Source: Balamuthia mandrillaris (taxonomy: Eukaryota). Taken from it: a DNA stretch of 64,000 nt. The stretch covers positions 1 to 64,000 of the forward strand of contig JAVKOQ020000047.1 of NCBI GenBank assembly GCA_031835245.2, given 5' to 3'. The position numbers were made by a program, and so were the translations under genes. Under the pieces are notes generated by a model that was given only the letters and a program-made list of their open reading frames with translations, was not told the DNA's origin and did no database searches. Position 1 is the stretch's first letter. Each line of letters opens with the position of its first letter. Below, one piece after another: positions 8,246 to 45,541 of the stretch.

Positions 8246-9900
<1,655 letters not shown>

Positions 9901-10038
9901 GTGATGGTGATGTGGCACATGGCAGGCTATAATAATAAAAGTATTGGAGATGATAGGAACTACTTTGCTTGGTGGCGAAAAATGGTGCCACAAATGTTTG
10001 GTTTATTGTGGCGGGCATGACAGGTTTGTTTGTGTTAA

Positions 10039-10760
10039 AAATACCTTCCAGGTGCCATCAACCCCGTGTTCGACCCAGTGGCGGACGCTTCGGTCTGGAA
10101 CTGGATGACAAGGGGCGCTTGAAGCGAACCTGTACACTGCACAAGGACAAACGTCAGCATCATGGCCTTGGATGCAGGGTTCGCACCTTCCTGTGTGGAT
10201 ACAGTCCTACCGAGAGAACAATACGTGAGGAAGTTTGCGCGCAATGACTTTGGCCGCATCTAGCGTCTCGGAAAGCATGCCGATGCCTTGCAGTCCAAGA
10301 TCGACCGTTCCCCTCGGAGTCGCCGCAAGAGAAAACTTCGCACTCTGCTGAAACTGCGGAGGAGGATCACCAACCGGGCCGATGATTTTCATCGCAAGAC
10401 GGCCTTGTTCATTTGCCGCCGCTACGACCACGTCATCTTCCCTTCCTTTGGCGTAAAGGGCATGACGGCCACACGAGATAGACGGAGGAGGAAGCGGTTA
10501 GGATGCTCTACTCCTGGGGTCATTACCGGTTCCGCCAGTGGTTGCTTCAAAAAGCGAGGGAGTGAGCGACCAAGGTCTACGTGCGCTCTGAGGCCTGGAC
10601 CAGCAAGACCTGCACCAGGTGCCTCCGTGTGACGCACGAGCAGCCGAAACACAACCAGCGAGAGCGGATCTTCGAGTGCGGACATAGGGACTGTGGGATA
10701 CATCTGGATCGAGATATAAATGGAGCGCGCAACATTCTTCTACGGAACCTTGTTGCGTAG
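10039..10760 (+). pseudogene. Fanzor/TnpB RuvC-zinc-finger nuclease pseudogene (5'-truncated)
   Basis: Frameshifts near 10178, 10245 and 10500. In-frame stops at 10261 (TAG) and 10563 (TGA). Terminal TAG at 10758-10760. Confidence 0.88.
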
Positions 10761-10901
10761 CGTTGCCCGATGGAGCCATATGGGGACGCGCCGATGGGAA
10801 AGTGGATGGGCGCTTCTGTAGCCCTCTAGCCCACCCCATCCTCGCATTCTCACAAGAACTTTTATTTGTGGGTTTACTCACTTGTGTGACTTTTAATCCA
10901 T
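10761..10901 (+). ncRNA. Candidate omega-RNA scaffold remnant
   Basis: Lies 3' of the Fanzor ORF. Nested stems GATGGG/CCCATC, GTGG/CCAC and GGGC/GCCC (10793-10840), plus a CTCACAA/TTGTGGG hairpin (10849-10872). Confidence 0.45.
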
Positions 10902-10995
10902 CAGGTTTGTTTGTGTGCATATGCACATAATATTTGGGTTTTGATCACCCCGCCCGCCCTGCTCGAGGAGAAAAGTGGTTGGTTGTTGTGTGGTG

Positions 10996-13900
10996 CTAGT
11001 CTTTTTTGTTTGTCTTTTTCCTTTGCTTGGCAAGGCGAGCCTGTTCCAGCTTGTTGGCTTGCCGAGGTACACCCCCACTGCCACTGCGGGTCGGTTCCTC
11101 AAATATCCAGTCGTCATCGTCTCCCCAGCCATTACCACCACCGTTGCCATCCTCCTCATCCTCATCCCCATCCCATCCCCAACCGTCGCCGCTACGGCTC
11201 CCTCCTCGCGCGGTACCGCCACTGCGGCTGGCACTGTTGTTGGCGCTGGAGGCAGAGCTAGAGGCAGTGGTGGAGGAAGTAGAAGGAAGAGAAGGAGAGG
11301 ACAGAGTATTGTCTCCCCATGAGTCAACACCATCGGTACTATCCCAGGCATCGCCATCGCCCCACCCTCCATCTTCTTCTTCTGCGGTTGGCAGGGCAAG
11401 AATGGAGGACTTGGCAGAGGAAGGCGCAGCTAGCTTCAACGTCAACGTTGTGTGTGATCTGCTTGCTAGCCGATCATCCTTCTCTTCGTCCTCCTTGCTG
11501 GACACTTTGCTCCAACTGTCCTCTTCATCTGTGTCATCATCGCTCCAGCCTCCCTCACCGTCTGCCGCCAATGAGGAGACTGCTGCATTGGGAGTTTGCG
11601 TTGGGATAGTGGGACTTATTGATCCTGCAGGTAGTGAATTATTGCTAATTGGTGGTGCGGTAGTCTTGGTGGTTGGTTTAACCGGCTCCTCTCCATAGAT
11701 CTGCTCCAATAACCAAAAGAGTTTAGGTCAGTTTTTAATGTGGAGGTATCACAAAACTCGTTTTCTTTTACCTTTTTGGACAAAGAGTCAAAAGCCCACG
11801 AAAATATTTTCTCGTGCGAGGACGTTGCTGGCTCATCTTCCGGCAGTGGAGCATCCCCTGCCTACAGGATGTGCGGAATGGGTGAATATGAGGCAAAAGA
11901 ACAAATAAGAGAGAAAAAATTCGCTACCATCTGGGAGGCCTTTTCAAGCTTATTGATGAATGTGTGAATTGCCTGTAAGGCGGTCTCTCTCACCCTCTTT
12001 TCAGGATCAACAGTTAGCACAGAGATAGAAGGTACTATCCGCTTGGCTGTATCATCCACATCGTAATAATCAACGGTAGCTGATGTTATATTAAGTCAAG
12101 AGGTAAGGTAATTGTTAGTGGAGGAAGGTAGGAGCGTTTCAAGCTGGGAGGTAATGATACCGGCAAATGCCATCAGAGCAGAGACGCGGGCAGGTGGGAA
12201 GGGATCTCTGAGAGCTCTGGAGAAGGCCACCACCAATACTTTTTTCCTCGTCTGAAAGCGTTCAATGAGAAAGAAGGTAGAACAGAAGAATAGAACAAGG
12301 CGTACGGAGTCGGAGAGGAAGCGGGAAATGCGGCCAAGACAGATGGTGGTGTTCGTGCGAATGAGTGGCTCTCTATCCATTTGTAACTTTGCAAAGTATT
12401 GCATAGCTTGTGTGTTCAGTGTTGAGGCGTTGAGCTTTCTCGTTGGTTTTGTCAATATATTCCCATTTTTTAACTAAACAAAAAAGAGAGTGATACCTTT
12501 GGAGCTAGATAAACTACAGAGCGAATGGTGAGCTCCCGCAGCTTGGGAGCCGGGTCAGAGAAACCTAACGCCACACAAGGGAAAATATTATCATTCACAA
12601 TTTGCGGAGACAGATGCTCAGCAAAGCTTTCCATGTTCTCTAACAAATTCGCTTTTAACTCCTTATCATTACCGGTGAACCATTTCACGATGCTGGAGAA
12701 TGAGAGTGAGTAGTTTGTTGGCAATCGAAACAAAAGAGATGAAAAAACATATAAAGACCTAGGGATGACCTGAGCCGCATATTCATCAGCTGATAAATGC
12801 TTTCCAATTTTTAAAAGGGATACAAGAGCACGTGCATTCGCTAAATTAACAGGACAGCCTGAGCACAAAGACCAAAAACGAGAAAAAGAAAGAAGTCTTC
12901 AAGATAGGTTACTAACCATAGCCATAGTTGATGGCCTGAAGTAAACTGGGCAATATCTTTTTGGTACATAAGTTTTGTGGGAAGGAGTCCAATAATGCTG
13001 GTAGCTCCTTGAAGAAGGCATCTTTTTGCGTGGGTTCTTTGAGAGCGATATTTTCGAGGAAGCGACAGGTGCGAACGATATTGTTATCGAAGTATTTGCA
13101 AACCAATACAGCATCCATTTCAATCCTTTTCTTTCCGTCTGAGCTGAACATTTTTTGGTAGCAAGGCACTAGTGCCTACAACAGTTATGGTGGATTGTTC
13201 CACGTTAGAATACACAAATGCGCTTGATAAAGGCGAGAGATCAAGGGCTTACTTTAGGGATGTTATTCGTATTCTGTAGCTCTTCACTGCGCTGCAATGA
13301 TCCATTAAAGAGCTCGTAAAGAAGGCAACCCACTAGCCAGCTGTCAACTGCGTGGACAGGGCCTTGTTGCAGCACAGGCCAGGCCTTCTTTCGGACCTCC
13401 GGTGGTTTATATTTGTTGTCTAGTATCTCTTCGCAATAATCCTTACAGTGTAGCTTGGTTAGCACCCTAAGAAAACCCGGAGGGAAACAAACACAACAGC
13501 ACAAAAGAGATGAAAGGGATGTTAGGTCAAAGGGACGAGGAAAAACCTTAAATGGAGTAAGAGACTGCAGGTCGGACACCAAGAGGAAACTGCCCAGTTT
13601 CCAATCGCCAGAAGCCGTCACAAAAATGGAGTTTAAGCCAACAGTGCCGTGCAGTAATTTACAGTCGGTGTTGAGAAACCGCAGAGCTTCCTACGTGAAG
13701 AAGGCGGATAAGGCGTGTGGTTAAGAAGCGAGAGAACGAACAGGGGGCGGGAGGGAGGGAGGGAGGAGGAGGAGGGAGGGAGGGAGGGAGGGAGGGAGGA
13801 GGGAGGGGGAGGGAGGGGAGGAGGGAGGGAGGGAGGGAGGGAGGGAGGGAGGGAGGGAGGGAGGGAGGGAGGGAGGGAGGGAGGAGGAGGGAGGGAGGGG

Positions 13901-29355: not shown

Positions 29356-29664
29356 GCTGAGGCACTATCACAGCTTCTTACCTGGAAAATCCATTGACAT
29401 TCTCTATCTCTCCAGCCTATCTCATTTTCTACCTCTACTCACCACCTAGCCCAACACTTTAATTGATAAAGAAGCAAGAACTTGCCTTTTAATTACAGTT
29501 AAAAGCGATAATAGAAGCTTGCCATCTTAGTATATATACTTAAAATGAGTAAACCGTAATATTGTTATCTTTTTTTATGTTTGTTTGTGCATAACTCGCT
29601 TGGTTATGTAAGTTTTTATTAGTATAGAAAAATTGTTAAGTTTGTTTGACATTACCACATGTTT

Positions 29665-29781
29665 TGTAGTAGTAGTAGTAATAAAAAGTTTATTTGCTCT
29701 GAGAGCAACACCAATCTATACATAAAAAGTAAGCCTTGTACATACATAGTGTACTCTTACTTTTCTTACTCCCTCATCCTC
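29665..29781 (-). mobile_element. Non-LTR retrotransposon 3'-end fragment with (TAC)n tail
   Basis: Reverse complement of 33852-33945; similar sequence also at ~62860-62965. Confidence 0.65.
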
Positions 29782-30883
29782 TACACATGTTTTGTATTAA
29801 TGTATAGTTAGGAAAGAAAGAAGACTTAAGAATTAGTGTTCAGGAGAGGGATAAGACACGCTATTTAACATCATTTATCTTCATTGGTTTGCTCCTTTTG
29901 CTGGAGGAAGAGCTGCTCCTTGTGTTGCTAAGAGTCAGATGAAGTACAGAAAACTTGCCTCTTTCATCCAACTATTTGCTCCAGAAAAACCATATTCAGC
30001 AATGACAAAGCAGTGTTTCAGCATCAACTAATGGAGGCCAAGGCTATAAAATGATGTTATAGTAACCAAAAGTTGTAAAAATAAAGAAGTTCTTAATTTT
30101 GATTACCTTTGTGCATCAACACAACAACACTTGCCTTTTACAAAATAATAAAATAAGAATAAAGAAAACACAAACAATAAAATAAAATAAATTTTCCTTG
30201 ATACTTCAACTTTTGCACATTGCCTGGCAAAAGTTTCTATGTAATCCTGTGTGAATTTCATTTGTAAAGGTATATTTGTCCTCCTTTATTTTCAAAGATT
30301 TGTGTTTTTAAGGCTTTTGAGATACCATAGCTTGGACCAAAAACATAAGAAAACATTTGTTCTCCTAAATGCGTTTAGCTCCCATCTTTCTCTTTGTTTT
30401 TGTCTTAAACACAGAACAAACAAAAGGAGAATCTCTTTTTGGAAAATTGAAAGGGTAAAAAATTTGTTATAAAATAATATACTAAAATCAAAAATAATTT
30501 TTTTTATTTATTTAACAAAAAAATAATGTTTTTTTCACTTTTTTCAAAAAAGAGTTAACCATCCATCACTGTGTTGATACATCTTTATACAAAAGATATA
30601 ACTTCTCATTTAGGAATAAAAGTGTAATTTTTTCCAATCAAAAAATACCAAAAAATTACACTTTGTGACATGTCAACAAATACATACAACTACATCAGTT
30701 GATAAAATAAGATTGCAGTACTTCTACTTCCAAAACAGAGAATTGGGACAAAACATGATGGCCCAACATTCACCTACAGTCACAGTGGTTATAAAGTGCA
30801 ACATAGATCTGAGAAAGAAGGAATTATGAAAAAGAGAGGCCAGAGACAAGAAAAGTAAGAAAGGAGCGAAGCAAAGCAGAGCA

Positions 30884-31145
30884 AAACAGAGCAAAGCAAA
30901 GTAGAAAGAAAAGAAATGGAGGGAAAAACAACAAAACAAAAAAAGATAAGAAGAAAAGAATGAGAAAAGGAAAAACTAATCTTTTTATCTAACATGTAAA
31001 AGGAACCCTAAAAGCACTCTTTAATAATCACACATGTTTGATAAAAAGATTAGTTTTTCCTTTTCTCATTCTTTTCTTCTTTTCTTTTTTTGTTTCGTTG
31101 TTTTTCCCTTCATTTCTTTTCTTTCTACTTTGCTTTGCTCTGTTT
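30884..31145. repeat. Long imperfect inverted repeat (~114-bp arms, 34-nt spacer)
   Basis: 30884-30997 is the near reverse complement of 31032-31145. Confidence 0.9.
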
Positions 31146-31369
31146 CTTTTCATAATTGACCCAGAGCTTTGTTTTCATCTTCTTTTCATTGTAGGACCCA
31201 CTGCGTGAGATGGAAACAAGAGCATAACTGCCAATGCACTTGTTTTTTAGTTATCACCAATCAATATTCTTAGTGATGGTTGAACAATTTCTTTCTCTTT
31301 TTCTTTAACTTCTTTCTTTAGTTTTTCAGTTTTTTTTCCTTTTCTTTCACTTTTTTTAGAATGGCAATG

Positions 31370-31842
31370 GGCTGTGCCATATGACACAGATCAACTCTTT
31401 GATTAAGGAAAGAAAGTAATTATTGCTTTGTGTAATACAGATCAATTCTGTGATCAACTGTAATTACCAACTAATTTAGTTACTTTCACTTTTTAAAAAG
31501 GACAATTACTGCATCATATGGTGCAGATCAATTCTTTGATCAACTATGATTACAAACTAAAGAGGGTGATGGCTGTGCCATGTGACCCAGATCAGTTCTT
31601 TGATTAACTATCATAAACAAATTTAGTTTTTCTATTATTCTTATATATTATTCACTTTATAAAAAGGTTAATTTTTGCACTATACAGCGTAGATCATTCT
31701 TTGATCATTAACTGTCCTTTTATAATATATAAGATCGATCACTTTCCTTTTATAATTCACAAGATCGATCACCTTCCTTTTATAGTTTGACTCTGATCTG
31801 CACAGATCAATTTTAGATCAAATACTTTCCTTTTATAGTTTG
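31370..31842. repeat. Array of degenerate AGATCAA-n4-TTGATCAA motifs
   Basis: Copies at ~31387, 31438, 31524, 31588 and 31690, with variants at 31731, 31761 and 31802. Confidence 0.75.
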
Positions 31843-31929
31843 GTTGATAATTGTATTGTATGGTGTAGCTTATTATGGTGCAACTCAGTTTGTTTTCATT
31901 TTTTTCAAAAAAATTAATTTTTGTTTATT

Positions 31930-34900
31930 AAGGAACATTGGACAAAGCTGGAAAGGAAAGATTCTTCTATTGGGAGCTTGCATCAAGAGGAAGCAGGTCC
32001 AGAAGGACCGTCTTGGTCTGATAGCAACAGGCTTAAGAAGGAGAGCTTTAATCTTGCATAGAGGAAAAGATTGAGGGTGGGCAAAGCAGCTGGAGTGGAT
32101 AATATCAATGGGAAAATGATGAAGTATGGAGGTAAACATGTGCAAGACACAACTTGGACACTGATCAAGGCCATTGAGAACCAAGGCGTGTTCTCCAAGG
32201 AGTGATAACAAGAGGTGGTTATCCCCTTGCATAAACTATAGAGGAATTACTCTCCTATGCAACACAGCCAAGGTGTTTGAGGGAGCTATCTTGGTGCAAT
32301 TAAACATACAAGCAAGAGAGCAAGGGTGGATAAGTGATTACCAGGGCGGATTTAGAAAAGGAAGAGGAGTCATGGATCAAGTGTGGTGGTTGAAGAAATA
32401 CCTGATGAAGAGAAGCAAAGAACGTAATTATATTGCTCTGTTAGATATCAGCAAGGCATACAACATGCTTGACCATAACATACTGGCAAGGACATTGTGC
32501 AAAAGAGGAGCAGAAGAGGCAGCAGATAGCATTATTGCAGAGTGGTACTGTGGTATGACAAGTGTCATTCACATGAATGGGCAACTCTCTAAGGAATTTC
32601 TGGTAAAAAGAGGAGTTAAGCAAGGAGGAGTTTTATCTCCCTTCTTGTTCAATGTATATGTATATTGGCTTGGTTGTAAGAAAGCTATAGGTGACAGAGG
32701 AAAAGGAAAGAGGAAATAAAGCAAGGAATGTTTGCTTGTTGTTTGCAGATAATTTGGCAGTGGTGACCAGTGATCCTTTTGATCTTCAGAGAAGACTGAA
32801 TGTGATAGTGGAAGCATTGAATGCTCTGGGACTCCAGTTCAATGCCAAGAAATCAGTGGTACAAGGAAAGAAGGCTTGCAGAAAAGAGTGGAGACTAAAG
32901 GGGAAAGCTGTGAAACGTGTGAAGGAGGCCAAGTACCTGGGACTGTGGTTTGAAGAAAGTGGTGAGTGGACAACCCATGCTAAGGAGAGGATGCTCCTCC
33001 TCAGCCAGTACAAAGCCAGAGAGTTCCAATGAGCTGTCCAAAGCCACTGTTCCTATATTCTCCTCCTTTTTCTTCCTCCCTATTTCTTTGCTCTTTAGGC
33101 TTCCACAGCGGTTTGCCTTCATTCTTGGCTTGTTAGATTCAAGCTTTGCCTACCCACCAGCAGGTGAAAGCATACAGCCTGGCTCTTTTCACAATAATGT
33201 CTTCAGCAGCCTGGGCCGTCTCCAGAGTAACTCCTTGATGCTGCATGCCATTCTTCTCTCCTACTTTCCACACTTCGACTTACTTGAGCCCCAACTCAAA
33301 GATCCTCTTACAAACTTTTTCCTTCTTAAGGTCCTTATTGTTCACCACAATTGATCTACCCTCCACAGCTCCTACCTTGGAGTAGGGACTGACAAAGCCA
33401 TACTTTGGTTTTACTGTAGACCAATAGTTTGGGTCAGTTACTGTATCATTGGTCCATGTCCTCCTGTATATATATTGAAGTTATCCTGCCAACTTATCTC
33501 TTGATCTTTTGCCATTTCTTCCTTTCAGTATTCCAAGCTTAGTGCACTAGCTATAGTTACCATTGGAGGGAAATTCCTTTCTGCAGTAATCTGGTCACAC
33601 CATGGAGCAAATTCGACGACCTTTGTGTATAACTGTTGATAATGGGCACCCAGAGCAAGACCACCTTTGGTACCTTTTGCACTTCCTTTTTCCTCACCAT
33701 AAGATTATTAATCTCCTGGACATCAAGAAGAGAATCTTGGACCTGGTCAAGGAAAGTGATTATTGGAGGAGATTGGAATGCCAGGGTTGGAAAGGCTGGA
33801 ATGATAGAGGTGAATCTACTTACAACAGGACATAACAATTGGGAAGGCATTGAGGATGAGGGAGTAAGAGAAGTAAGAGTACACTACATATGTACAATGC
33901 TAACTTTTTATGTATAGGTTAGTGTTGCTCTCAGAGCAAATAACTTATACTGCTTACAACAGGAGAGGTGCTGATGGAGTCTTTCAAAAGGCTGGCCCTC
34001 TTAGTGCCTCAGCTTGAAGAGGAAATACCAGTGTTTACATGGAGAGCTGGAAAACAAAAGAGCATTGTGGACTATGTGGTAGCATGGAATGGCAAGGTAG
34101 CTGGCAATGAGTGACAAGCATGGACTGATCATCAACCTCTGGTAGTGGAGTTGAAGGATTCAGCAGATCATTGCAATGGAGTTTGGATGGAACATTGAAA
34201 GTGGAAGTCCTACTTGGAGGAAGATTGCAAGAGGAGGTTGAGGGAGTACAAACATGGATGGGTGCAAGTGTTTCTTCAAAGGAGAGGAATGGAAGGCCAT
34301 ACATTGATGAGTGGATCTGGCCATGAAGGAATGTCTTAGACTGGGGACCCTAAACAGTAATTGTTCATGAAAGCCTGGTGCTGGAAAAGTATAGGCACCT
34401 GAATACTGTCACAGTCAAGTTTCCTCCTTCTCAAAGGGCTAACCAAAAGGAGGAGGATGACAGAGGTGCAGAGGATCAGCGTAACTCAGTAGTGGATTCA
34501 CCCCACCAAGAGGAAGGGACCAGTGTTGTGCCCAAAAGGAAGATTGATTCAGACTCAGTCAGTGTGAACAACATTAAGGCAGACCAACAGTCAAGTAGCA
34601 CTGCTGTTCGATTGTATTAGCAGTGTTTCTCATGAGTGTGATAAGCTTTCTGAGGTAGGCGTACTTTCACTTACAATGATTGTATGATTCAGGGGCCTGA
34701 TTGAATTCCATAGTACCTCCTGGAGGGAGATACACTATATTAATTATAAAGATGCAACTCTGTCCCACTAGTTCCACCCAAGTTGAGTTGGGTGTTTGCT
34801 GCTTTTTCTTTTTTCTGATGTTTCCCTGAAAGCCCTCTCAAACGAAGAACCCTGCATCACCCCTTCCATAGCCACTCTTCCCTGGAGTAGCCCCTCTACC

Positions 34901-36470
34901 CATCCATTGATACCCCTCCAAGTGTTGGGCCTCCTATGTTTGCACACTCCAACAATGTCAAATTGCTTAGAATCACCAAGGTCAAGCAAGCCCTTTACAG
35001 CCTTAGGCAGCAGGGAGCCATTGCTCAAGGACTGGGTACACATACTGCCCAGATTGCTGCAGAGGCCATTGTCAAGTCTACTTTGTCATATGGACTTTGC
35101 ATGACAAAGCTTTCCAAATCATGGTGGAAGAAGATTGAAGCTGTGTGGAATGAGACAGTAAGAAGTGTATTGCAAGTTCATCAAAGGACTGTGACAGGGT
35201 TTGTAGAGCAGAATTGGGCTAGTTGACCATCAATGACTTGTTGCCTCACTTGGACCATTTTCGTTCTGCTTTCTGTGAAAGGCAAGCAGTAATTCGCCAT
35301 GCTGAGAGGCAAGATGGCCACTTTGAGCTTCTGAAAGAGATAAGCCAAGCAAGGGAAGAGGAAAGTGAGAAGAGAGAAGGTGAGGAAAGTGAAAGGATCA
35401 GTGATATTGAAAAGAAAGCCAAGAGGATGAGGACCTTAACTCGAGTAGCCAAGGCAGAGTATGCTGTAAAAGGAGAAAGAGGAACAAGAGCATGGCTTTG
35501 GCGTAACTTTTTGACAAATGGAAGATGTTTGATTGGACAACAACAGAGCTTAGTGATTATCAACCCAAGGAAGGAACAATTGATGAATGCTATTCGCTGT
35601 AGTGGACTGCCCATTGGTAAAAAGTGGGAAGCCATTCAACAGTCTGAAGAGGACAGTAAGCGCCCTGCATGCAATGCTGAGGAAGAAACAGCAGAACACT
35701 TCCTATGAAAATGTCCAAATCTTTGGGAAAATCATTTTAGAAGCTGGAATGTGGACAATGGGGATGAAGAACAAGTCAGAAAGCTAATTATAGAAGACTG
35801 TACTTGTAGCAGCTTCATAATAAGAACTGAATTGATCTCCTCATGTGGCTTGTCCTTCAGGTCCAACAATTGTGCTAAAAGAAAGAGTATTGTCCTTTTA
35901 AATGTAAAGGGAAACGTATACTGGAGCTACTCCAAAGCTTTATGCACCTAATCATAACAATTGTGAGAATTGTGAAAGGGTGAGGGAGTTGGATGGCTGT
36001 TAAACTGCCAGAGAGCGTAAAAGCTGTTTTCTTCACTTGAAAAGCTTTTCAAGTTGTTTCCCTTTTGTAGTACCAATTACCTGGGACGTGGTCCAATAGT
36101 CTTTCAGCCAGTTTTGGCATGATGTGAGCACTAGCTATTTGCTAGATATAGTGTAAGTGTTCGATCTCTTGAGCTCTGTTGCATTTCTTTGCACTTGACA
36201 GGAGCTTTGTTGTACAGTCTTCTATAATTAGCTTTCTAATTGTTTCTTCATCTTCATTGTCTACATTCCAGATTCTAAAACGATCTTCCCAAAGATTTGG
36301 ACATTTTCATAGGAAGTGTTCTGCTGTTTCTTCCTCAGCATTGCATGCAGGGCGCTTACTGTCCTCTTCAGACTGCTGAATGGCTCCCCACTTTTTACCA
36401 ATGAGCAGACAACCACAGCAAATAGCATTCATCAATTGTTCTTTTTTTGGGTTGGTAATCACTAAGCTCC
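31930..36470 (+). mobile_element. Cluster of degraded LINE fragments (reverse transcriptase, AP endonuclease, C-terminal zinc finger) in mixed orientation
   Basis: RT motifs NYRGITLL, YQGGFRKGR, LDISKAYN, GVKQGGVLSPFLFN, LFADN and KYLG. Endonuclease motifs IIGGDWNARVG, SIVDY and TDH. Zinc finger PACNAEEETAEHFL at 35660-35710 (+) and 36307-36360 (-). Confidence 0.9.
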
Positions 36471-36479
36471 TGAAATCCC

Positions 36480-37400
36480 TTAAAGGTGACCTCAACCACT
36501 GGTCTACCTTCCTCCTCATCACACAATTCACCTTAAATCAGTGAATATCCCATCACTCAGACTCCAAACCCTTCAAGCTCTTCTTTGGCAAACCTCTTTC
36601 TTACCCAGACAACTACTTTAATAGTATATCCAAAATTAAAACTCCACCTGAGATCACCTCTCTCACCAAGGTCATGCTGCAAATCTTCTACCCTTCTATC
36701 TACAAAAAGGTTACTAAGTACTCCGCCAACATAGAAAAGTACTTCAACATAACAAACAAAATCATTTACTTTTCTTCTGGGGACAAGGTGCTACTGAAAA
36801 ACTCCTCAGCAAACTCTAAAACTGACCCAAATTTCTTGGTCCCTTTATCATCCTCCACTGCACTGATAACGGAGCCTACATCCTTCAGGACATCACTGGC
36901 AACATACTCCTTGACAAGGTTCCTCCAAGTGCTCTCACGCCTGTGGATCGTGACACCCGTTTTGAAGATAAGCACTATGAAGTGAAAAAGATCCTCAACC
37001 ATGATGGCCCACCTTCCAACTGCTACTACCTTGTGAAGTGGAGAGGATACCCTGACTCGAACAACTCTTGGGTTGCAGCCAAGGACTTCAGCTCTCAGTG
37101 ACCCATCTCCACCTACTGGGAGAAGAAGTACCAAGAAACGTCACAAACAGTGTTAGTTCTCTTTGGGAAGGCAGTGATGTTGGAAAACCAACAATTTATG
37201 TCATTATGACTTCCTGTTGACACTTTCCCTGGATACTCCAACTTCTCTCACCCCTTTTTATTTTCCCTTTTTCCTCATGATACACTCAAAGCACACACTT
37301 TGGTCCACACCTCTTTTCTTGTGAATAAACCTGGAGTCGCTTATGTGCTGTCACTTATGCTGTCCCTTTCTTGATCTGCAGGGTTTATCCCTCATCAACA
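36480..37400 (+). mobile_element. Chromoviral Ty3/gypsy remnant: integrase C-terminus, chromodomain, PPT and 3' LTR
   Basis: GDKVLL..FLGPF (GPY/F module) and HYEVKKILNH..YYLVKWRGYPDSNNSW. A purine tract precedes the LTR TGTTG(37178)...CAACA(37400), which contains AATAAA. Confidence 0.88.
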
Positions 37401-38899
37401 AGTAGATTGCTGAACTTGGCCTTGAAAAGAGAAGTTTCCAAATAACGGATTTCATAGTCCACTCCTGAGGATTGATGTCCATTCAGATCAGGAAAGGAAG
37501 GGAATGAGTCGAGTAAGGAGGAAGAGTTGAAGCAGAAGGAGCAAAGAGCTAAGGAAGTGAGTGAAGAAGAGAGGAGAGAATAGGCACAAAACTTTCAAGT
37601 TCTTCATTGAGGTAAAGAAGGAGTGAAATGTCTCACTATATATAACCTTTGCTGAGACAAAGTAAAACAAAAAGTAAGTCAGCAATGAATGAAAACTCAG
37701 AAATGAAACTAAAGGAGTTGTTGCATACATACCAATATGTTGTTTGTGTCATAACATTGTTGACTTGTCTCATCTATGCCCTAACTCATCACATCAACTA
37801 GCTGTTTCTCACTATTAGTATTCAGTAGAGAGATAGAGGGAGTGAGAGCAAGAGAGAGAAAAGGGGATCGCAACACAGCAGGTTTACATACAGTCACGTC
37901 AAAAAGGTATAACAAGAGGTATCTTTCTTACAGTACAATGATGAAGGGCTTTCTTTCTCATTCTCTGGCCTGGATATTTGACTTTGATTTCTTCTTGTCC
38001 TTCTTGTCTTTTTTATCATCCTTCTGCTCCTTTGAGCTTCTCATCTTCATTTGTTTCTTTTGTGTGAATAGGATGGCCTTCTTCATCAACAGGTTCAGAG
38101 CTTGCTTTTCTACATTGTTTTCAGTGGGTGCCTCTTGTGTGTTGCTAGCAAGTATAGATATTCTCTCTCTGCATCTTTAGAAAATGGCATAGCAAAGGAT
38201 TTGACGCAATCTCAGTCTGATCAATAGGATGACATCAACCAGTCAATCAACGGAATCTCTAAGTATTGTGTTACCACAGGAGAAGGGAAAAGAGGGAAAA
38301 AGTAGAGAATAACAGAATTAGAGAGAGAAACAGTACACATAAAGCAGGTCTTTCTAATAAGAGCAAACCAAGAACCACCCCAATCTTATCTCTCCTTTGT
38401 GAGCGTTATGTGAGAAAGAGGGATTGACATGACTCAAGGCTGGGTTGTGACAAGAAAATGAAGAGCAAAAATAAGCCTCTATCACTGACAGTGAGCCATG
38501 GAAGCATACTTCTTCTAACCACTGGTTTCTTTCTTGCTCCATTTGCTTGCCTTGGCAGTGTTGACTATTCATACACAGGTGATAGCCTTCCATTTCCTCA
38601 AATGACCCTATTTGTGGGTGCAATGAAAACAGAGTCATTCTACAGTTTAATTGCATCTCCTTTGTCTCTTTTCATCACTCCTGTTCCAGATCTAAAAGCA
38701 AAGTCTCCTTGTTACCTAAGGCTGTAAAAGACTTGACCTTAGCAATTTTGCAGGTTTTTCCAAATAGGTTGTTTTTGACACTTTTTCATCCATTTCCAAA
38801 AATTGCCCATAAAATTAAGTGGGGCAAAATTGAGGAGTTGCTCTGGAGGTGGCTTAGGTTGCTGAAGATATTATTGCAGAAAGAACTAGGCTGTATGCT

Positions 38900-39660
38900 T
38901 TTGCCCACTGGTAGGTGGGCAAGAATGAAGGCAAACTGCTATGAAGTCCTAAAGAGCAAAGAAATAAGGAGAAGAATATTGGAACAGTGGCTTTGGACAG
39001 CTCTTTGGAACTCTCTGGCATGGTGCTGGCCAAGGAGAAGCATTATCATGATGCTGCCAACTAGTCTGACATTGTGAATGAAGAAGGGGAAGACACTCAA
39101 TAACTTCAATAGCATTTGTCAACTCTAAGGGTTGGGGGCAAGAGGAATTGGTCAGCTGTTGGGCGGATAGTAAGCAATTTGATATTGTTGGAGTGTGCCA
39201 CAGACTATCTAGACAAGAGGAAGGTGAGAAGAGAGAAGGGAAGGGATGTGAAGGAATGAGTGACGTTGAAAAGAAAGCCAAGAGGATGAGGGCATTAGCT
39301 TGAGTAGCCAAGGCGAAGTATGCAGCTGAAGGAGAAAAAGAAACAAGAGCATGGCTTTGACATAACTTCTTGACAAATGGAAGCTGTTTAGTTGGACAAC
39401 AATGGAAGAAAAAGGAGAACACTTCCTGTTAAGTCTAAAGCTTTGGAAAGATCATTTTAGAATCTGGAGTGTGAATAATAGAGATGAAGAAACAAGTTAG
39501 AAAGCTAATCATAGAAGATTTTACAACAAAGCTTCAGTCAAGTGGAAAGAAATGCAATAGAGCTCAAGAGATGGTCAGAATTTTATAGATAAAACAATGC
39601 AAGCAAAGTTGTAAACGGGTCTGAAAGATTATGGGCAACAAGAGCAAATTGGAGGCATGG
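38900..39660 (+). mobile_element. Further degraded LINE fragments
   Basis: Similar to 33030-33130 (reverse) and to 35370-35800. Confidence 0.75.
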
Positions 39661-39898
39661 AGGTTTTTCTGCTCTTTGGAAGTAATGTAAGTTGTTGATT
39701 TTTAAAAATCAACAACTTTTAGAAATTACTAAAAAATTAAAATAAGATATCCTGATATTTAATTGTGTTGGCAACTGCCAATATAACCAACATGTTACTT
39801 TTTTCTTGGTTTTTCCTTGGCTTATATCAGCACCTAACCTATTGCTTTCTTATGAAACTTAGGAACTTTCCTTTCTCCCTTTTGATACATGACTTCTT

Positions 39899-40560
39899 TT
39901 GATTTTGAGACGCGAGATAGAGAGCGTGCGCCAGAGAGCTGAGAAGGGGGAACAAAGAGCTGAGGAGGAGCGCAAAAGAGCCGAGGAGGAGCACAAGAGA
40001 GCTGAGGAGGAGCGCGAGAGAGCCGACAAACTCACCCACAAAATCAACGAGGACTCCACTCTCCCCGAACGCCTTCCGCCTCTTGGCGAAAGGTCGGGTT
40101 CTTCATCAAAAGCCTCCACAAAAAAGCCATCAGCGACCTTGATTAGATCCAAATGTCCCTTTGGTAGCATTCCAGAGCTTCAAGACAGGCTAACACAACC
40201 CAAAGCTAAACCCTCCCTTATACACCAGTTGAATGCGAACCTGGGTCCACGAGGATAGTGTCAAATACTTTGTCTCCACTATCCTTCATGATGTCGCGCT
40301 GGAAGTTCGAGATTTCCACCTGGCCCCAGAAAAGGGCATTTTGGGCATAAGACCAGGTAACTGTTTGCTCTTGTTCTTCCACTTTCGCATAATAAGCTCA
40401 CATTGACTTCTTTGCATGTGAAGATCCTCAGCAGGCCTGTGGGGATTGTGGAGCTCAAGACACCTGCTCCTCCCAACCGAAATAAAAGCATATTGGACTC
40501 CAATAACCTCGCAGGGCAGGTCTATGATTACCTCAAGTGCTTACAATCATTTCACGGTCT
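39899..40560 (+). pseudogene. Fragment of a coiled-coil plus PD-(D/E)xK REase-like gene, truncated by an inverted duplication
   Basis: RAEEERKRAEEE repeats and PVGIVELKTP...GQVYDYL. The reading frame is lost at the inverted repeat. Confidence 0.5.
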
Positions 40561-40644
40561 CTTGGTAGGTGGACACAATTGCAAATGGGTGTGCAAGACC
40601 GTGAAATGATTGTAAGCACTTGAGGTAATCATAGACCTGCCCTG
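40512..40644. repeat. Perfect 49-bp inverted repeat with a 35-nt spacer
   Basis: 40512-40560 is the exact reverse complement of 40596-40644. Confidence 0.97.
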
Positions 40645-40714
40645 GATATGTTGGCTTTACACCGATGCTGTGAAACGGGCCGCAAGAGAAACTAGCTTGG
40701 ACTTCTTTACTTAC

Positions 40715-41371
40715 AACAATAGGAACATTCAGTGACAACTCCCAGAAAGCCCGCCCTGTAAGACATGACATAAGCCGTTACTAGTGGAAGAAAGAAAAAC
40801 CAAGCAAAAAAGCGTGGTCTAACCCTTCAAGTAGGTTGTGTGATGGCCCAACTTAGAGGCAGGACAGCTCACAGTGATGCCTTCTTCCAGATTCTCAAAT
40901 AGGAGTTTGTCTTTCTCTTGCCCTTTGTAAGTGAAGGTTCCTTTTTCCAATAAAACATCTTTCAAAGGGTAACCGACATTGGTGAGGAGAATGAGGGAGA
41001 AAGAGAAAGAGAGGGAGGGAGAGGAAGAGAGAGGGAAGTTAGACCAACAAAAGAAGAAGACAAAGAACAGAAATAAGGACCTTCAACATTTTCAGCAGAG
41101 CAAAACGTTCAATCTTACGCACACCCGTTTCCAAGTCCTTGATGGTGGCACTGACGTGGGCAGCGCCGTGGGCGGTATTCCTGGACTGTCCGATCTCTAC
41201 AATCTCCCAAATGCTGCCCCGGAAGCGGAAGGCTTGCCCTCTTCTAAGATCCACAGCCTTGACGTACGACCGACTCCAGCAACCGGTTTGCCACGCTTTG
41301 TTCACCGAAGTCCGCTGAAGACACACCAGAGGAGCCCTCCAAGGCAGGAGGCTCCCTTGTCTTGCTAACAT
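40715..41371 (-). CDS. Elongation factor P-like protein with putative mitochondrial presequence; 3' end missing or rearranged
   Basis: KAVDLRRGQAFRFRGSIWEIVE...AHVSATIKDLETG..ERF (KOW-like domain I). The next exon encodes DVLLEKGTFTY..LLFENLE..KLGHHTTYLK (domain II-like). Confidence 0.65.
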
Positions 41372-41790
41372 GGCAGGCGCTACGCGCGTGAAGACGACGT
41401 CCGTGTTGTTGTGCCTTACTTAAAAAAAAAAATAAATTTGTTGCTCCACAAAATGTGCAGCATTCCTGCACGTTATTATTAAAGAAGGTCTCCTCCCCCG
41501 AAGGCGCTGCAGAGCTAAAGGACAAACGCGAGCGAGCCAAAGAGGCCCAAAGAGCTGCAAAGAGTGAAGGAGAAACAGAAACGTGCAACATCGAGTACTA
41601 CATCAGTGAGACTGCAGCTTGGTCTTCCACACGGGTCCGTCGGGGAAAGAGTACTCCTCGATGGATGCTGCGTGCATTTGAGTGCTGTAGCCGGGGTCCT
41701 GTGGTGGCATGTAACACCCGTTTCTAGGCCGTGCTTTGTTTGTCAGTTCCTGAGGGGGAAAAATAACACAAAAGAGCAAGAAACACGTAC

Positions 41791-43340
41791 TTAACTACAC
41801 AGGGATGCACAAAGTGTTCGTGAAGATGATCTACAAACTCAGCCCAACGCTCTTCTGTGGATCCACAGCAGTACACATAGTCAAAGAAAATGATATGTTG
41901 AACATACTCGCACAGGCCTACTCCACTAGCATGTGGCATCACCTATTGAAAGAGCCAAACATGACAGAGGAAACTTAGCATATTAGAATAACCTATAGGG
42001 AAGAAAAAACAGGGAGAATGTCATCAAAAGCGAGCAGAAGATGAAAACCAATACGGTCACACCAAACTTCGTGGCCATAAGAAGAACTGCGATGATCTCA
42101 TTTAAGCTTCCTAAGTGACAGGAATCCAGCTGACAAATGCCCAAAGCCTCTGCCTGGAAGAACTGCTTGAACATGATCCTGTTCTGGCAGTGTTTGAATA
42201 TAGTCTTGTAGAGGATCCAACCTGGAGGGTTTGTTGTTCTTTGTTTGCCAGGCACTTTTTTCAGAGAAGTTGAAAGTAAAAGCTTTTTTCCAACATTTTT
42301 CTCTGAATTCCAAGTCATTACTGCTACCTCTCCTGTGTTCTTGTTGGCCATTCCTGCCCAGGTGTCCATTTGGTCTAACTTAGCACCCAAGTGAGCAGAT
42401 GCAAACTTGTACCAAGCAGCTTTTACACTACAGTGAAATGGGACTCCTTGTTCATTTAGTAAAGCTTGAGCTGAATTATCCAAGTAGAAGCAATCACAGC
42501 AAACAATTAGGTATCTAGTTGTTGGTTGCATCAAGTCAATGAGCCATGTCCACACCTTTTCCTTTGTTTCTACTGACTTGCCTTCAGAACTGGTGCCCAT
42601 GAAAAGATAAAGTCCAAAAATAAAAGACCTGCTACTTTCCTGTAAACTAACACATGCTTGTGTTATCCAATGACCAATAGGATCATTTTTCTTAGCAAGG
42701 ACCTTTTTGATGCACTTAGAAGCACCACGCCACTTTCTTTGCTTCTCATCCATTGTAACAAATTCACCAAAGCCAATATGCTTATGTAGGTTCTTTGACA
42801 ACTTGGTTCTTGCCACTTCAATAGTGATGAAGAAGTTATTTCAAATCCAAGTCCATTTATGAAGACCCAAACACCCTTCAAACTTTGAAGACAAGTGAGG
42901 AAACACAGCATTAATGACGTTGTGTTTTGTCCCAGGCTCAACAGCAAACCTCTCTGCTCTTAAGTAGATGTTGAGAGCAAAGGCCATGTAAATGTCTTTT
43001 AACTCAAGTGATTTGTTGTTGTAGACCATCTTTTCTTTGCCAAGCTCTTTTCGACAAGCAACAAGGACTTTTGGGGGAAGTAATTGCAAGAAGATATCAG
43101 CAATTGTAGCACGTCGTAACAGTTAATGGACAGCCAACTACTTACCATGGAGCAAGAATCTCTGCTGCTTACAAGGCTGCAATTCAGAGATCTTATTTTT
43201 TTACACCTGTCGTTAACTTGCCTGCTGTGCATCTACTCTCTGATTCCTTTGCTCAAGAGTGCGTGTTCTCTTTGGAACAACTGCAACAGCCAGCAGTTGT
43301 TTCTTACTCAAATCTTCACGACCCTACTTCCTCTTTAGTT
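41791..43340 (-). mobile_element. Degenerate piggyBac-like DDD transposase
   Basis: VTMDEKQRKWRG..KKNDPIGH (DE..G..KP.G motif), IVCCDCFY (D-N-F-like) and YKTIF. It has frameshifts, and no TIRs could be confirmed. Confidence 0.65.
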
Positions 43341-44851
43341 TTACTTGATTGTTTTTAATTTAAAGCAAGCGTGTCTTTAATCTTTATAAACTTGGTAATA
43401 TTGGGTGCATGCTCTTCTTGGTAATGGACCGTATAAACGACTGTAGAAACGTCAAATTTGCCTCCGACCGTATATCTGGCCGTTTATTTGAGCATTTTAC
43501 CTAATATGGAGAAAGAAGGCGGATATCCGCCCGTATTTCCGGAAATTTGACCAGTAGAGTGATTTGTCAAAGTCCTCATCGAGGACTACCAAGTATCTAG
43601 CTTTCAAAGCATCCAGATTGTGGGAGAATTCTGTGAGGAGATTGTGCCATTTATCATAGCAATCATTGTTGGTTCAGCATTGGGTAGGCAAGTGTTTGGC
43701 AATCTCCAACCAGAACCATTGATCACACAAGCACCAAGTAACAAGTCTACGGATTTCTGGTGCCTGCCAAGCAATTCGTTGCTGATGGCCATTCTTCTGA
43801 TATTTGAGTCGACTGGATAACAATTGTTGTTGCTGAAGCACTCTGCAAACTCGTTGTCATCATGGTGTTTGTTCTTTCTTTGAGTTAGGGCGCTTGTCAT
43901 TGTCATTGTCAGCATCATCATCAAGAGAAGTAAGTGGTGAGAAGGATGGCTGCTCTTGATGAGGGGTAAGAAATGCTTTGTGAATGGGTGATCCGTTGAC
44001 CAACTTGGGAAGTATAGGAGCTACAAACTCATCCACCAGCTCATTCAAGCCACTGAAAAAGCTTTGTAGAATGCCAGAGATGTGTTGATGACACTGCTGG
44101 CAATGAATATTGGGCCAACAAAGAGGAGATTTGTTTTTGGCCTCATACATGGCTGCAGCTTCAGCAAGCACTTCCTTATCAAACTCATTTGAATGATTTT
44201 CTACCCAAGTGGTACAACATTCAAGCCACAAGGAGTGATAAAATCATTTTTGTTGATCTTTAGTTGGTAAATCTGTTCATTTCATGAACCACCAAATAAA
44301 GAAGCAGTGTAAAAGAAGAAGAAAGAAAAAGAAAGCAAGAGAGAAAGAAAGAAAGAGGGAAAAGATACAAAAAAACAACATGAGAATGAATGTCAAAAGA
44401 AAAACAAAGGAACCAAGACCAATCATCATAACAATTATTGTTTAAACTATGAATGTTGCTGCTGCCACAATAAACCTGTGCGTTCTAGCTGAGTGCTAGG
44501 TCTAAGGGTGCATTTTTGAATGCAAGCAAGCAAACAAACAAACAAACAATGACTAACTGGATAGATAAATAGATTAATAGATAATGGTGATGGTGGTGGA
44601 TACTATCTATCTATGCAAACAAAACAAACAAACAAACACAAACAAACATACTGTTGGTGAACAGCATGAATAAAACTCTGATAGTTGGTATCTGCAGACC
44701 AGTTGGATTATTGCAAAGCATCTGGGGATAGATTGTGAAATGCTTCTTTGGTAACTAGCTCTGGAGCAACAACTGTATGCATGCATGCAAGGGAGTGAGG
44801 ATAAAAAGAACCAAAAAGAGAGCAAGTCAGTACATCAAGTGGTAGTGGTGG

Positions 44852-45110
44852 TGTCACAACCCGGCCTTGGGTCGTGCCAATCCCTCTCTCTCACACAACG
44901 CTCACAAAGGAGAGATAAGATTGGGGTGGTTCTTGGTTTGCTCTTATTAGAAAGACCTGCTTCGTGTGTACTGTTTCTCTCTCTAATTCTGTTATTCTCC
45001 CCTTTTTCCCCTCTTTTCCCTTCTCCCGTGGTAACGCAATACTTAGAGATTCCGTTGATTGGCTGGTTGACGTCATCCTATTGATCAGACCGAGATCGCG
45101 CCGCGTGACA
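44852..45110. mobile_element. Solo LTR (259 bp)
   Basis: Termini TGTCAC...GTGACA, flanked on both sides by GTGG within a (GTG)n tract. Confidence 0.75.
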
Positions 45111-45253
45111 GTGGTGGTGGTGGTGGTGGTAGTTTATTGAAGCCAGTCAGCCAGCCAGCCCATATTGTTAAAGAAAAAACAAAAATCAGATGAGCAGGAA
45201 CAAACCGCAATGTCAAGGAGGATGATAATCAGCAGTGGTACTCGTTGCAACAG

Positions 45254-45541
45254 AGGAAGAAGAAGATGACGAAGAAGAAGAAGAAGAAGAAGAAGAAGAA
45301 GAAGAAGAAGAAGAAGAAGAAGAAGAAGAAGAAGAAGAAGAAGAAGAAGAAGAAGAAGAAGAAGAAGAAGAAGAAGAAGAAGAAGAAGAAGAAGAAGAAG
45401 AAGAAGAAGAAGAAGAAGGAAGAAGAAGAAGAAGAAGAAGAAGAAGAAGAAGAAGAAGAAGAAGAAGAAGAAGAAGAAGAAGAAGAAGAAGAAGAAGAAG
45501 AAGAAGAAGAAGAAGAAGAAGAAGAAGAAGAAGAAGAAGAA
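45254..45541. repeat. (GAA)n tract of ~290 nt
   Basis: Near-perfect GAA repeat with one phase shift at ~45418. Confidence 0.97.

What the first reader, a model, noticed from the sequence alone, without database searches (positions are those of the whole stretch)
10039..10760. Eukaryotic Fanzor2/TnpB-type RNA-guided nuclease remnant with the rearranged RuvC site
Seen: across three frames the sequence reads MALDAG/VRTFLCGYSP (RuvC-I D at 10171), a basic bridge helix, HVIFPSFGVKGM, WGHYRFRQWL, SEAWTSKTCTRC (E at 10590), CGHRDCG and DRDINGARNILL*. Established: Fanzors have P/G at the canonical TnpB RuvC-II Glu and use a Glu shifted to just before the zinc finger, which is the pattern here. Inference: this is a decayed copy of a Fanzor2 family, so intact programmable copies may exist elsewhere in this genome. 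The ORF track shows only pieces of it.
Basis: partly seen in the sequence, partly recalled or inferred. Interest (0 to 1): 0.85.

Follow-up and report, generated by a model that had tools for sequence, protein, structure and literature searches.

The report
Dead copy of amoeba Fanzor2 transposon
This is the broken back half of a jumping gene for an RNA-guided DNA cutter (Fanzor2) in the amoeba Balamuthia; near-identical, apparently intact copies are annotated in the same species, and the ends of this copy likely record a cut-and-copy-back repair that stopped halfway.

Summary
Confirmed. Window 10056-10760 is the 3' half of a Fanzor2 gene with six frame-breaking or end-altering indels and two stops; sequencing contigs match it letter for letter, so the breaks are real. 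The host is Balamuthia mandrillaris. The copy is 73-82% identical to Balamuthia gene models that join an IS607 serine recombinase to a Fanzor2 with D/E/D intact (five loci, 428-433 of 433 residues alike), and other copies are transcribed. The element's right end is fixed at 10904 (...CCATCAG), the flank after it is free, and the site is empty in other alleles. New detail: the copy has no left end; instead the left flank ends CAG plus the same 12 bases that follow the right end. That is the scar expected if Fanzor cut an empty allele and copy-back from a filled allele aborted (about 50%). In one gene model a whole element sits at a CAG|GT junction of RICTOR with no host residue lost, so whole elements may be removed as ordinary GT-AG introns (about 30%). 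IS607-Fanzor2 elements are known from Acanthamoeba; no paper searched reports them in Balamuthia. New member of a known kind.

The parts
10021..10023 (+). CAG at the end of the left flank; same three bases as the element's right end; predicted target motif (TAM) and recombination core
   Evidence: 3 bases match left of both junctions; role inferred
10024..10035 (+). Left copy of a 12-nt host sequence that also follows the right end; read as the kept stub of the cut target
   Evidence: the empty allele holds this sequence once (joint 10027 to 10905)
10036..10055 (+). About 20 nt not assigned: filler or strongly decayed Fanzor sequence; no conserved left end seen
   Evidence: no contig of another family copy is laid here (depth explained by the two alleles); a left end under about 30 nt could be missed
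10056..10157 (+). Fanzor2 pseudogene, end of the wedge region; starts near residue 400 of the 672-aa model P0001; about 22 codons missing after it
   Evidence: tblastn; loose ends at 10095, 10160 and 10177
10156..10260 (+). RuvC-I (Asp at 10171; DPG motif changed to DAG and broken by a frameshift), second frameshift near 10220, stop at 10261
10264..10495 (+). Bridge helix and REC2; Pro at 10441 in place of the canonical RuvC-II Glu; frameshifting loss near 10482-10495
10500..10760 (+). Shifted catalytic Glu (10590), zinc finger CxxC...Cx4C (10611-10692), RuvC-III Asp (10713); stop at 10563, one-base loss near 10750, terminal stop 10758-10760
10761..10904 (+). Conserved non-coding tail, predicted guide-RNA scaffold, and right end ...CCATCAG; also looks like a host 3' splice site (branch-like ACTCAC, then CAG)
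   Evidence: contigs stop matching after 10904; fold not better than shuffles, z -1.12; no Rfam hit; host acceptors
10905..10924 (+). Right flank, the guide a whole element at this site would have made; its first 12 nt are the duplicated ones
   Evidence: guide role from established TnpB/Fanzor anatomy (PMC10711439 section 25)
10137..10210 (-). Cryptic 74-nt GT-AG intron on the opposite strand, skipped in one contig otherwise identical to the window; suggests a host transcript reads antisense through the remnant
   Evidence: (run X4, one contig, depth 5; run type is a guess)

Best explanation
This is a dead, left-truncated copy of a Balamuthia IS607-type transposon carrying Fanzor2, likely left when Fanzor from an intact copy cut an empty allele of this site and repair copied the element back from its right end but stopped after about 870 bases. 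Shown: the identity of the gene, the real lesions, the fixed right end with a free flank, the empty allele, the CAG-plus-12-nt repeat, intact gene models with a serine recombinase, and transcription of other copies. Established for IS607/TnpB: the recombinase excises and inserts the element at a short shared core with no target duplication; the nuclease takes its guide from the right flank and cuts the vacated site some 15-21 bases past the target motif, which drives copy-back from a filled chromatid or homologue. Inferred: the target motif here ends in (C)AG; the right broken end was fully homologous to the filled allele and primed synthesis into the right end, while the left broken end kept CAG plus 12 target bases and was joined without copying the left end. 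The product cannot be excised or make a nuclease, so such right-end stubs would pile up, which fits their excess in the genome.
For: Identity. Right end: contigs break after 10904 or 10905 in X1 (16 and 3), X2 (12 and 4), X13 (13 and 2); agreement among the flanks after 10904 is 0.40-0.42, as for unrelated sequences (0.39-0.41). Empty allele: joint 10027 to 10905 in X4, X13 and X1, and one RNA read of X18; in X1 filled (depth 60-67) and empty (31) add up to the shared flank (96). Repeat: starts exactly at the right end and is preceded on both sides by CAG; an exact 15-mer copy in a like 200-nt zone occurs at 26 of 62,980 window positions, 1 of 7,283 of like complexity. IS607 makes no target duplication (PMC3627910, PMC6188088 listing), so the recombinase does not explain it. 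Twelve kept bases lie inside the mimivirus Fanzor2 cut zone, nicks at 15-21 (PMC10530073 section 9). Summed contig depth climbs about 15-fold from the coding part to the last 40 nt in X1, and short copies begin with unrelated left flanks.
Against: One junction only; no other copy's two ends could be read. The repeat is partly a GTTT microsatellite and the empty allele seems to carry one more unit. The target motif and cut sites of this enzyme are untested. Summed contig depth is not a copy number. The host has non-LTR-type reverse transcriptase remains (32174-32716), and the empty allele could have arisen later by deletion between the two repeats. The copy is 13-17% off other copies while the two flank alleles differ by about 3%; part of that gap is subfamily divergence (24 of the 36 listed coding differences are third positions; 126 more rows not shown), part stays unexplained.
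Confidence: 0.5

Rival explanations
1. A host non-LTR reverse transcriptase copied an element RNA into a staggered nick, giving a 5'-truncated copy with a 12-15-nt target duplication.
For: 5' truncation, a 3'-biased excess of copies and a 12-15-nt duplication are textbook for target-primed reverse transcription (recalled). The window holds an RVT_1 remnant. Family RNA exists.
Against: No poly(A) at the right junction. A guide RNA runs on past the right end, so retrocopies should share donor flanks, yet flanks are unrelated from the first base. The CAG match and the exact stop at the right end would both be coincidence unless the RNA is cut there.
Confidence: 0.2
2. A whole element inserted by its recombinase at CAG, later lost its left half by an ordinary deletion, and the 12-nt repeat came from templated filler or microsatellite slippage, with no part for Fanzor.
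For: The copy has other deletions (about 22 codons near 10157, loss near 10490). The repeat is low in complexity. CAG on both sides is what the recombinase alone would leave.
Against: It must put an exact copy of the far right flank at the exact left insertion point; chance 1-4 in 10,000 per site. It does not explain the excess of right-end stubs.
Confidence: 0.22
3. The copy is an internally deleted non-autonomous element whose true left end happens to begin with the repeated bases and which inserted at a look-alike site.
For: Non-autonomous derivatives are common; the skipped part reads GT...AG, as a left end starting with GT would.
Against: No other family contig covers 10028-10055. The peptide read through the left end in P0122 does not match this stretch.
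Confidence: 0.08

Closest known systems
IS607-type Fanzor2 elements of Acanthamoeba and mimivirus (ACa-1/-2, ISvMimi, ApmFNuc, PDB 9b0l; 'IS607EU'; PMC3627910, PMC3673617, PMC10530073, PMC13565253)
   Same: MerR-HTH plus serine recombinase ahead of HTH/RuvC/zinc-finger nuclease; rearranged RuvC-II; no inverted ends found; conserved tail behind the ORF; an Acanthamoeba model also joins both genes in one protein (XP_004344636.1).
   Different: Separate lineage: nearest relatives outside Balamuthia are one metagenomic protein at 65-71% and then about 45% or less. Right end ...TCAG with a free next base, not a G-rich end; second zinc knuckle is Cx4C, so the published pro-Fanzor search pattern fails on 6 of 6 proteins. 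This copy has a flanking duplication, which IS607 does not make.
Cyanobacterial pro-Fanzor IS607 elements (TnpB2)
   Same: Same catalytic rearrangement and gene order; 80 loci kept of 354 found, best segments 28-42% identical; two families end in TCAG-like right ends.
   Different: They form their own supported branch with phage copies (96) that leaves out the Balamuthia group; the backbone is unresolved, so the donor cannot be named.
Restorative homing by TnpB in IS605 and IS607; IStrons (10.1101/2023.11.20.567912, PMC13565253)
   Same: Proposed way of working: cut the vacated site, copy the element back. IStrons also hide the insertion by splicing.
   Different: The review passages read list homing as shown for bacterial TnpB/IscB and only cleavage for Fanzors. 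IStrons use a group I ribozyme; any splicing here would be by the host spliceosome.
MCi-2 Fanzor1 family of Mucor (PMC3627910 section 12)
   Same: Conserved 3' ends, fuzzy 5' ends, 11-12-bp flanking duplications left unexplained there.
   Different: Fanzor1 with a partial Crypton recombinase; several kb; copies called complete.

Membership tests
Fanzor2 / pro-Fanzor nuclease | DPG at RuvC-I | tested here: met
   DPG in 33 of 33 aligned relatives, Balamuthia models included; decayed to DAG with a frameshift in this copy
Fanzor2 / pro-Fanzor nuclease | Pro or Gly at the canonical RuvC-II Glu, with a Glu six residues before the zinc finger | tested here: met
   P in 32 of 33 and E in 33 of 33; P at 10441 and E at 10590 in the window
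Fanzor2 / pro-Fanzor nuclease | C4 zinc finger followed by RD (RuvC-III) | tested here: met
   PF07282 above cut-off; spacing is CxxC-18-Cx4C, a variant
Fanzor2 (not Fanzor1, not canonical TnpB) | Groups and folds with Fanzor2/pro-Fanzor | tested here: met
   Fold search of the P0121 model: 9b0l first (E 3.7e-18), Fanzor1 structures at rank 29 and below. Tree of 79 of 181 rows: apart from 5 canonical TnpBs (98), no Fanzor1 row included, 30 of 76 inner branches open
Fanzor2 | Resides in a eukaryotic or giant-virus genome | tested here: met
   Intron-split NUDIX_2 gene upstream; kinase 100% identical to B. mandrillaris; contigs run from flank into remnant
Fanzor2 | Structured guide RNA at the right end with a pseudoknot | tested here: inconclusive
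   Tail conserved to 10904, but fold z -1.12, no Rfam hit, no alignment of copies available
Fanzor2 | RNA-guided DNA cleavage | not testable with these tools
   This copy cannot encode the enzyme; intact models keep D, E, D
IS607 family element | Serine recombinase TnpA with N-terminal MerR-type HTH upstream of the nuclease | tested here: met
   In the family: 4 of 4 proteins of the P0001 cluster and P0124; best solved matches are IS607-type recombinases. Absent from this copy and from P0002
IS607 family element | No terminal inverted repeats, no target duplication, short shared core at both junctions | tested here: inconclusive
   No inverted ends and a shared CAG fit; the 12-nt duplication does not, and is read as secondary; full-length junctions could not be read
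Spliceosomal-intron transposon (introner-like, IStron analogue) | Element begins GT, ends AG and is spliced exactly from host mRNA | tested here: inconclusive
   Right end is CAG (shown). Left end known only from the P0122 peptide: Gln then Val, 28 codons to the recombinase start, no RICTOR residue lost. No DNA or spliced read seen

The most novel reading that the evidence does not exclude
The whole Balamuthia element is a GT-AG spliceosomal intron: it inserts after (C)AG, starts with GT and ends with a branch point and CAG, so the host splices it out of genes such as RICTOR without loss, a eukaryotic counterpart of bacterial IStrons; and its many right-end stubs with short duplications are a genome-wide record of Fanzor cutting empty alleles in a living eukaryote.
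Probability: 0.3. Interest if true: 0.8.

Novelty: new member of a known kind. Interest (0 to 1): 0.45.

Why it matters
The remnant is dead, but it points to a young, transcribed IS607-Fanzor2 family in a cellular eukaryote, with a nuclease part of about 430 residues and a predicted (C)AG target motif: a ready candidate for a compact programmable nuclease. What Fanzors do in their own hosts is still inferred from bacteria; if the junction pattern repeats across copies, one genome scan would give direct evidence of homing in a eukaryote and a read-out of the cut position. If whole elements are spliced out, it would show an RNA-guided transposon creating new introns.

Tried and rejected
No whole genome is held for the window, so other copies could not be read as DNA. 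No second copy in the window by tblastn, blastn or right-end pattern. Metagenome scans found nothing: right-end pattern 0 matches; close-family patterns 0 of 595 stretches confirmed. A search with the left-end peptide found only the P0001 cluster among 157 candidates; P0124, a third subfamily, is joined to a host gene by a predicted intron and does not show the left end. Assembly error: rejected. Bacterial contaminant: rejected. A natural recombinase-Fanzor fusion protein: not accepted, because the models join the two parts at different points and IS607 ORFs normally overlap out of frame (PMC3673617 section 9); left open. Guide-RNA structure: no support from folding or Rfam. No RNA holder was listed among indexed runs; raw RNA runs X17 and X18 gave 73 and 103 reads, mostly under 90% alike and in both directions, none over 10044-10166, and X19 gave 1 read; these seem to come from a strain with the empty allele, so they say nothing on this copy. 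Earlier findings by sequence, by place and by the first word set were empty. No complex prediction was run.

Full report
Observation. The last piece matches Pfam PF07282 at E 9.8e-17 and the middle piece PF01385 below cut-off; the middle piece's best solved match is mimivirus L79, the last piece alone ranks Cas12f chains just above it. Against intact relatives the copy shows a loss of about 22 codons near 10157, a one-base loss in the DPG motif, four extra bases near 10220, a stop at 10261, a loss near 10482-10495, a stop at 10563 and a one-base loss near 10750. Two contigs of run X1 match 9896-10206 and 10184-10745 with no difference, so these are real.

Host and family. A kinase ORF of the window is 100% identical over 93% of its length to a Balamuthia mandrillaris protein. 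The best 2 of 329 hits of the last piece are Balamuthia 'Transposase' models at 84%. The P0001 cluster has four sequences from five loci; each carries a MerR-type HTH, a resolvase domain, HTH_OrfB, OrfB and the TNB domain, and their nuclease parts agree at 428-433 of 433 residues with the catalytic Asp, Glu and Asp and the recombinase YCRVSS motif intact. P0002 (338 of 387 alike) and P0124 (63% to P0122) are further subfamilies. These are gene models; I could not read their DNA. RNA reads of X17 and X18 carry the unbroken letters at three of the window's breaks (loose ends at 10177, 10219, 10500), so other copies are transcribed at a low level.

Placement. The Pro-for-Glu swap and the shifted Glu are as defined for Fanzors (PMC10530073 and PMC10711439, passages). 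The model of P0121 (mean pLDDT 66, nuclease part mostly over 80, recombinase part poor) finds mimivirus Fanzor2 first, then TnpBs, with Fanzor1 far lower. In a tree of the RuvC half (79 rows kept of 181 after thinning at 62% identity; no Fanzor1 row) the remnant, both Balamuthia proteins and one metagenomic protein form a group with support 100, outside the branch of cyanobacterial and phage pro-Fanzors (96) and apart from five canonical TnpBs (98); the backbone is open. So it is a Fanzor2 of its own lineage, donor unknown.

Ends. Laying 8 of the 20 listed runs fixes the right end: many contigs stop matching after 10904, fewer after 10905, and what follows is unrelated from the first base. The G after CAG is therefore not fixed, and the shared core most likely lies within CAG. 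A joint from 10027 to 10905 in X4, X13 and X1 is an empty allele with its own variants; X1 holds both alleles at about 2 to 1. No family contig covers 10028-10055, and homology starts near residue 400 of 672, so the left end, the recombinase and the front of the nuclease are missing. The left flank reads CAG plus 12 bases identical to those after the right end.

How it likely arose. IS607 recombinases leave no duplication (PMC3627910, passages). TnpB of IS605 and IS607 cuts the vacated site and drives copy-back (10.1101/2023.11.20.567912 and PMC13565253, passages); mimivirus Fanzor2 nicks 15-21 bases past its motif (PMC10530073, section 9). After such a cut the right fragment is fully homologous to a filled allele and can prime copying into the right end, while the left fragment carries a stub of target that blocks entry into the left end. 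Aborted copying and end joining then give exactly this anatomy: motif, short stub, truncated element, right end, whole flank. This step is inference from one junction; I put it at 0.5. It predicts an excess of right-end stubs, and contig depth and the unrelated left flanks of short copies point that way, though summed depth is no copy number. Retrocopying by a host reverse transcriptase (a remnant lies at 32174-32716) and plain deletion remain open. Against my reading: no full-length donor allele is seen, the repeat is partly microsatellite, and the copy is more diverged from its family than the two flank alleles are from each other; 24 of 36 listed coding differences fall on third positions, so much of that distance predates its death.

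The intron lead. In model P0122 a whole element interrupts RICTOR: residues 40-190 match human 642-791 and 894-1060 match 792-971, so nothing of the host is lost. After Gln191 comes Val (a GT codon) and 28 codons, 84 bases, to the recombinase start. In bacterial and phage relatives the left end lies 52-100 bases before that start (15 of 19 pairs printed, about six families; the other 4 printed the nuclease ORF first). So the left end may begin at that very GT, and the right end resembles host acceptors. The rival is an insertion inside a native intron. TCAG-like ends also occur in cyanobacterial relatives, so the acceptor would be inherited, not evolved for splicing. One locus, no DNA, no spliced read: 0.3.

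Literature. Balamuthia with Fanzor: 0 papers. 'Balamuthia' is absent from the supplement of PMC10711439 and from the two held files of PMC10530073, which also lack Acanthamoeba castellanii and so may not be the species table. The 2023 annotation paper PMC10471605 has no word beginning 'transpos' in its main text (term search only). Searches for Fanzor with spliceosomal intron, introner, gap repair or truncated copies listed no paper whose title or abstract start makes these claims (listings only). Subscription papers, Repbase and the Saito 2023 tables were not searched. IS607-Fanzor2 elements, some intact, are known from Acanthamoeba (PMC3673617, passages and section 9; PMC3627910, passages and section 12). 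PMC10711439: passages and sections 24-26. The names NUDT21/CFIm25 for the upstream NUDIX_2 gene and the traits of target-primed reverse transcription are recalled.

Verdict. A real, dead Fanzor2 copy that marks an unreported, probably active IS607-Fanzor2 family in Balamuthia: a new member of a known kind, interest 0.45, with two cheap tests that could raise it.

Noticed in passing
window 29500-45500: Island of decayed mobile elements: reverse-transcriptase remnant at 32165-33032 (RVT_1, E 6.8e-19), a chromodomain-like LTR-type tail near 36826-37101 and a piggyBac-like ORF at 41983-42840 minus (both by eye, recalled), a 258-nt inverted repeat 35546-35803/36212-36469, a 168-nt inverted pair 38285/44852 and a 201-nt direct repeat 35343/39202.
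   Followed up: no
window 9760-11500, run X1: Filled and empty alleles at about 2 to 1 with a unit depth near 31, which hints at a triploid or aneuploid genome.
   Followed up: no
P0122 (KAL6067239.1): The RICTOR model also begins with a peptide read from the guide-RNA region of another copy, so this gene seems to hold two pieces of the element, both in sense orientation.
   Followed up: partly
P0001, P0121, P0122, P0123, P0124: No Met lies between the recombinase and the nuclease's HTH in any model; how Fanzor is translated (splicing, frameshift, hidden start) is open. An Acanthamoeba model is joined too.
   Followed up: partly
window 10816-10819 and 10868-10881: P0002's read-through has Glu where the window has Val, which would put CUGA next to a hairpin loop, complementary to the terminal UCAG (possible pseudoknot); an X18 loose end turns a G-U pair of a short hairpin near 10870 into A-U.
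   Followed up: partly
window 9069-9139: The upstream NUDIX_2 gene appears to have a GC-AG intron, and its last intron is a 548-nt CT-repeat tract.
   Followed up: no
L113, L119, L123-L125, L147; L137-L139, L143, L144, L146: Multi-copy young pro-Fanzor IS607 families in Anabaenopsis elenkinii and Heteroscytonema crispum with sharp ends.
   Followed up: partly
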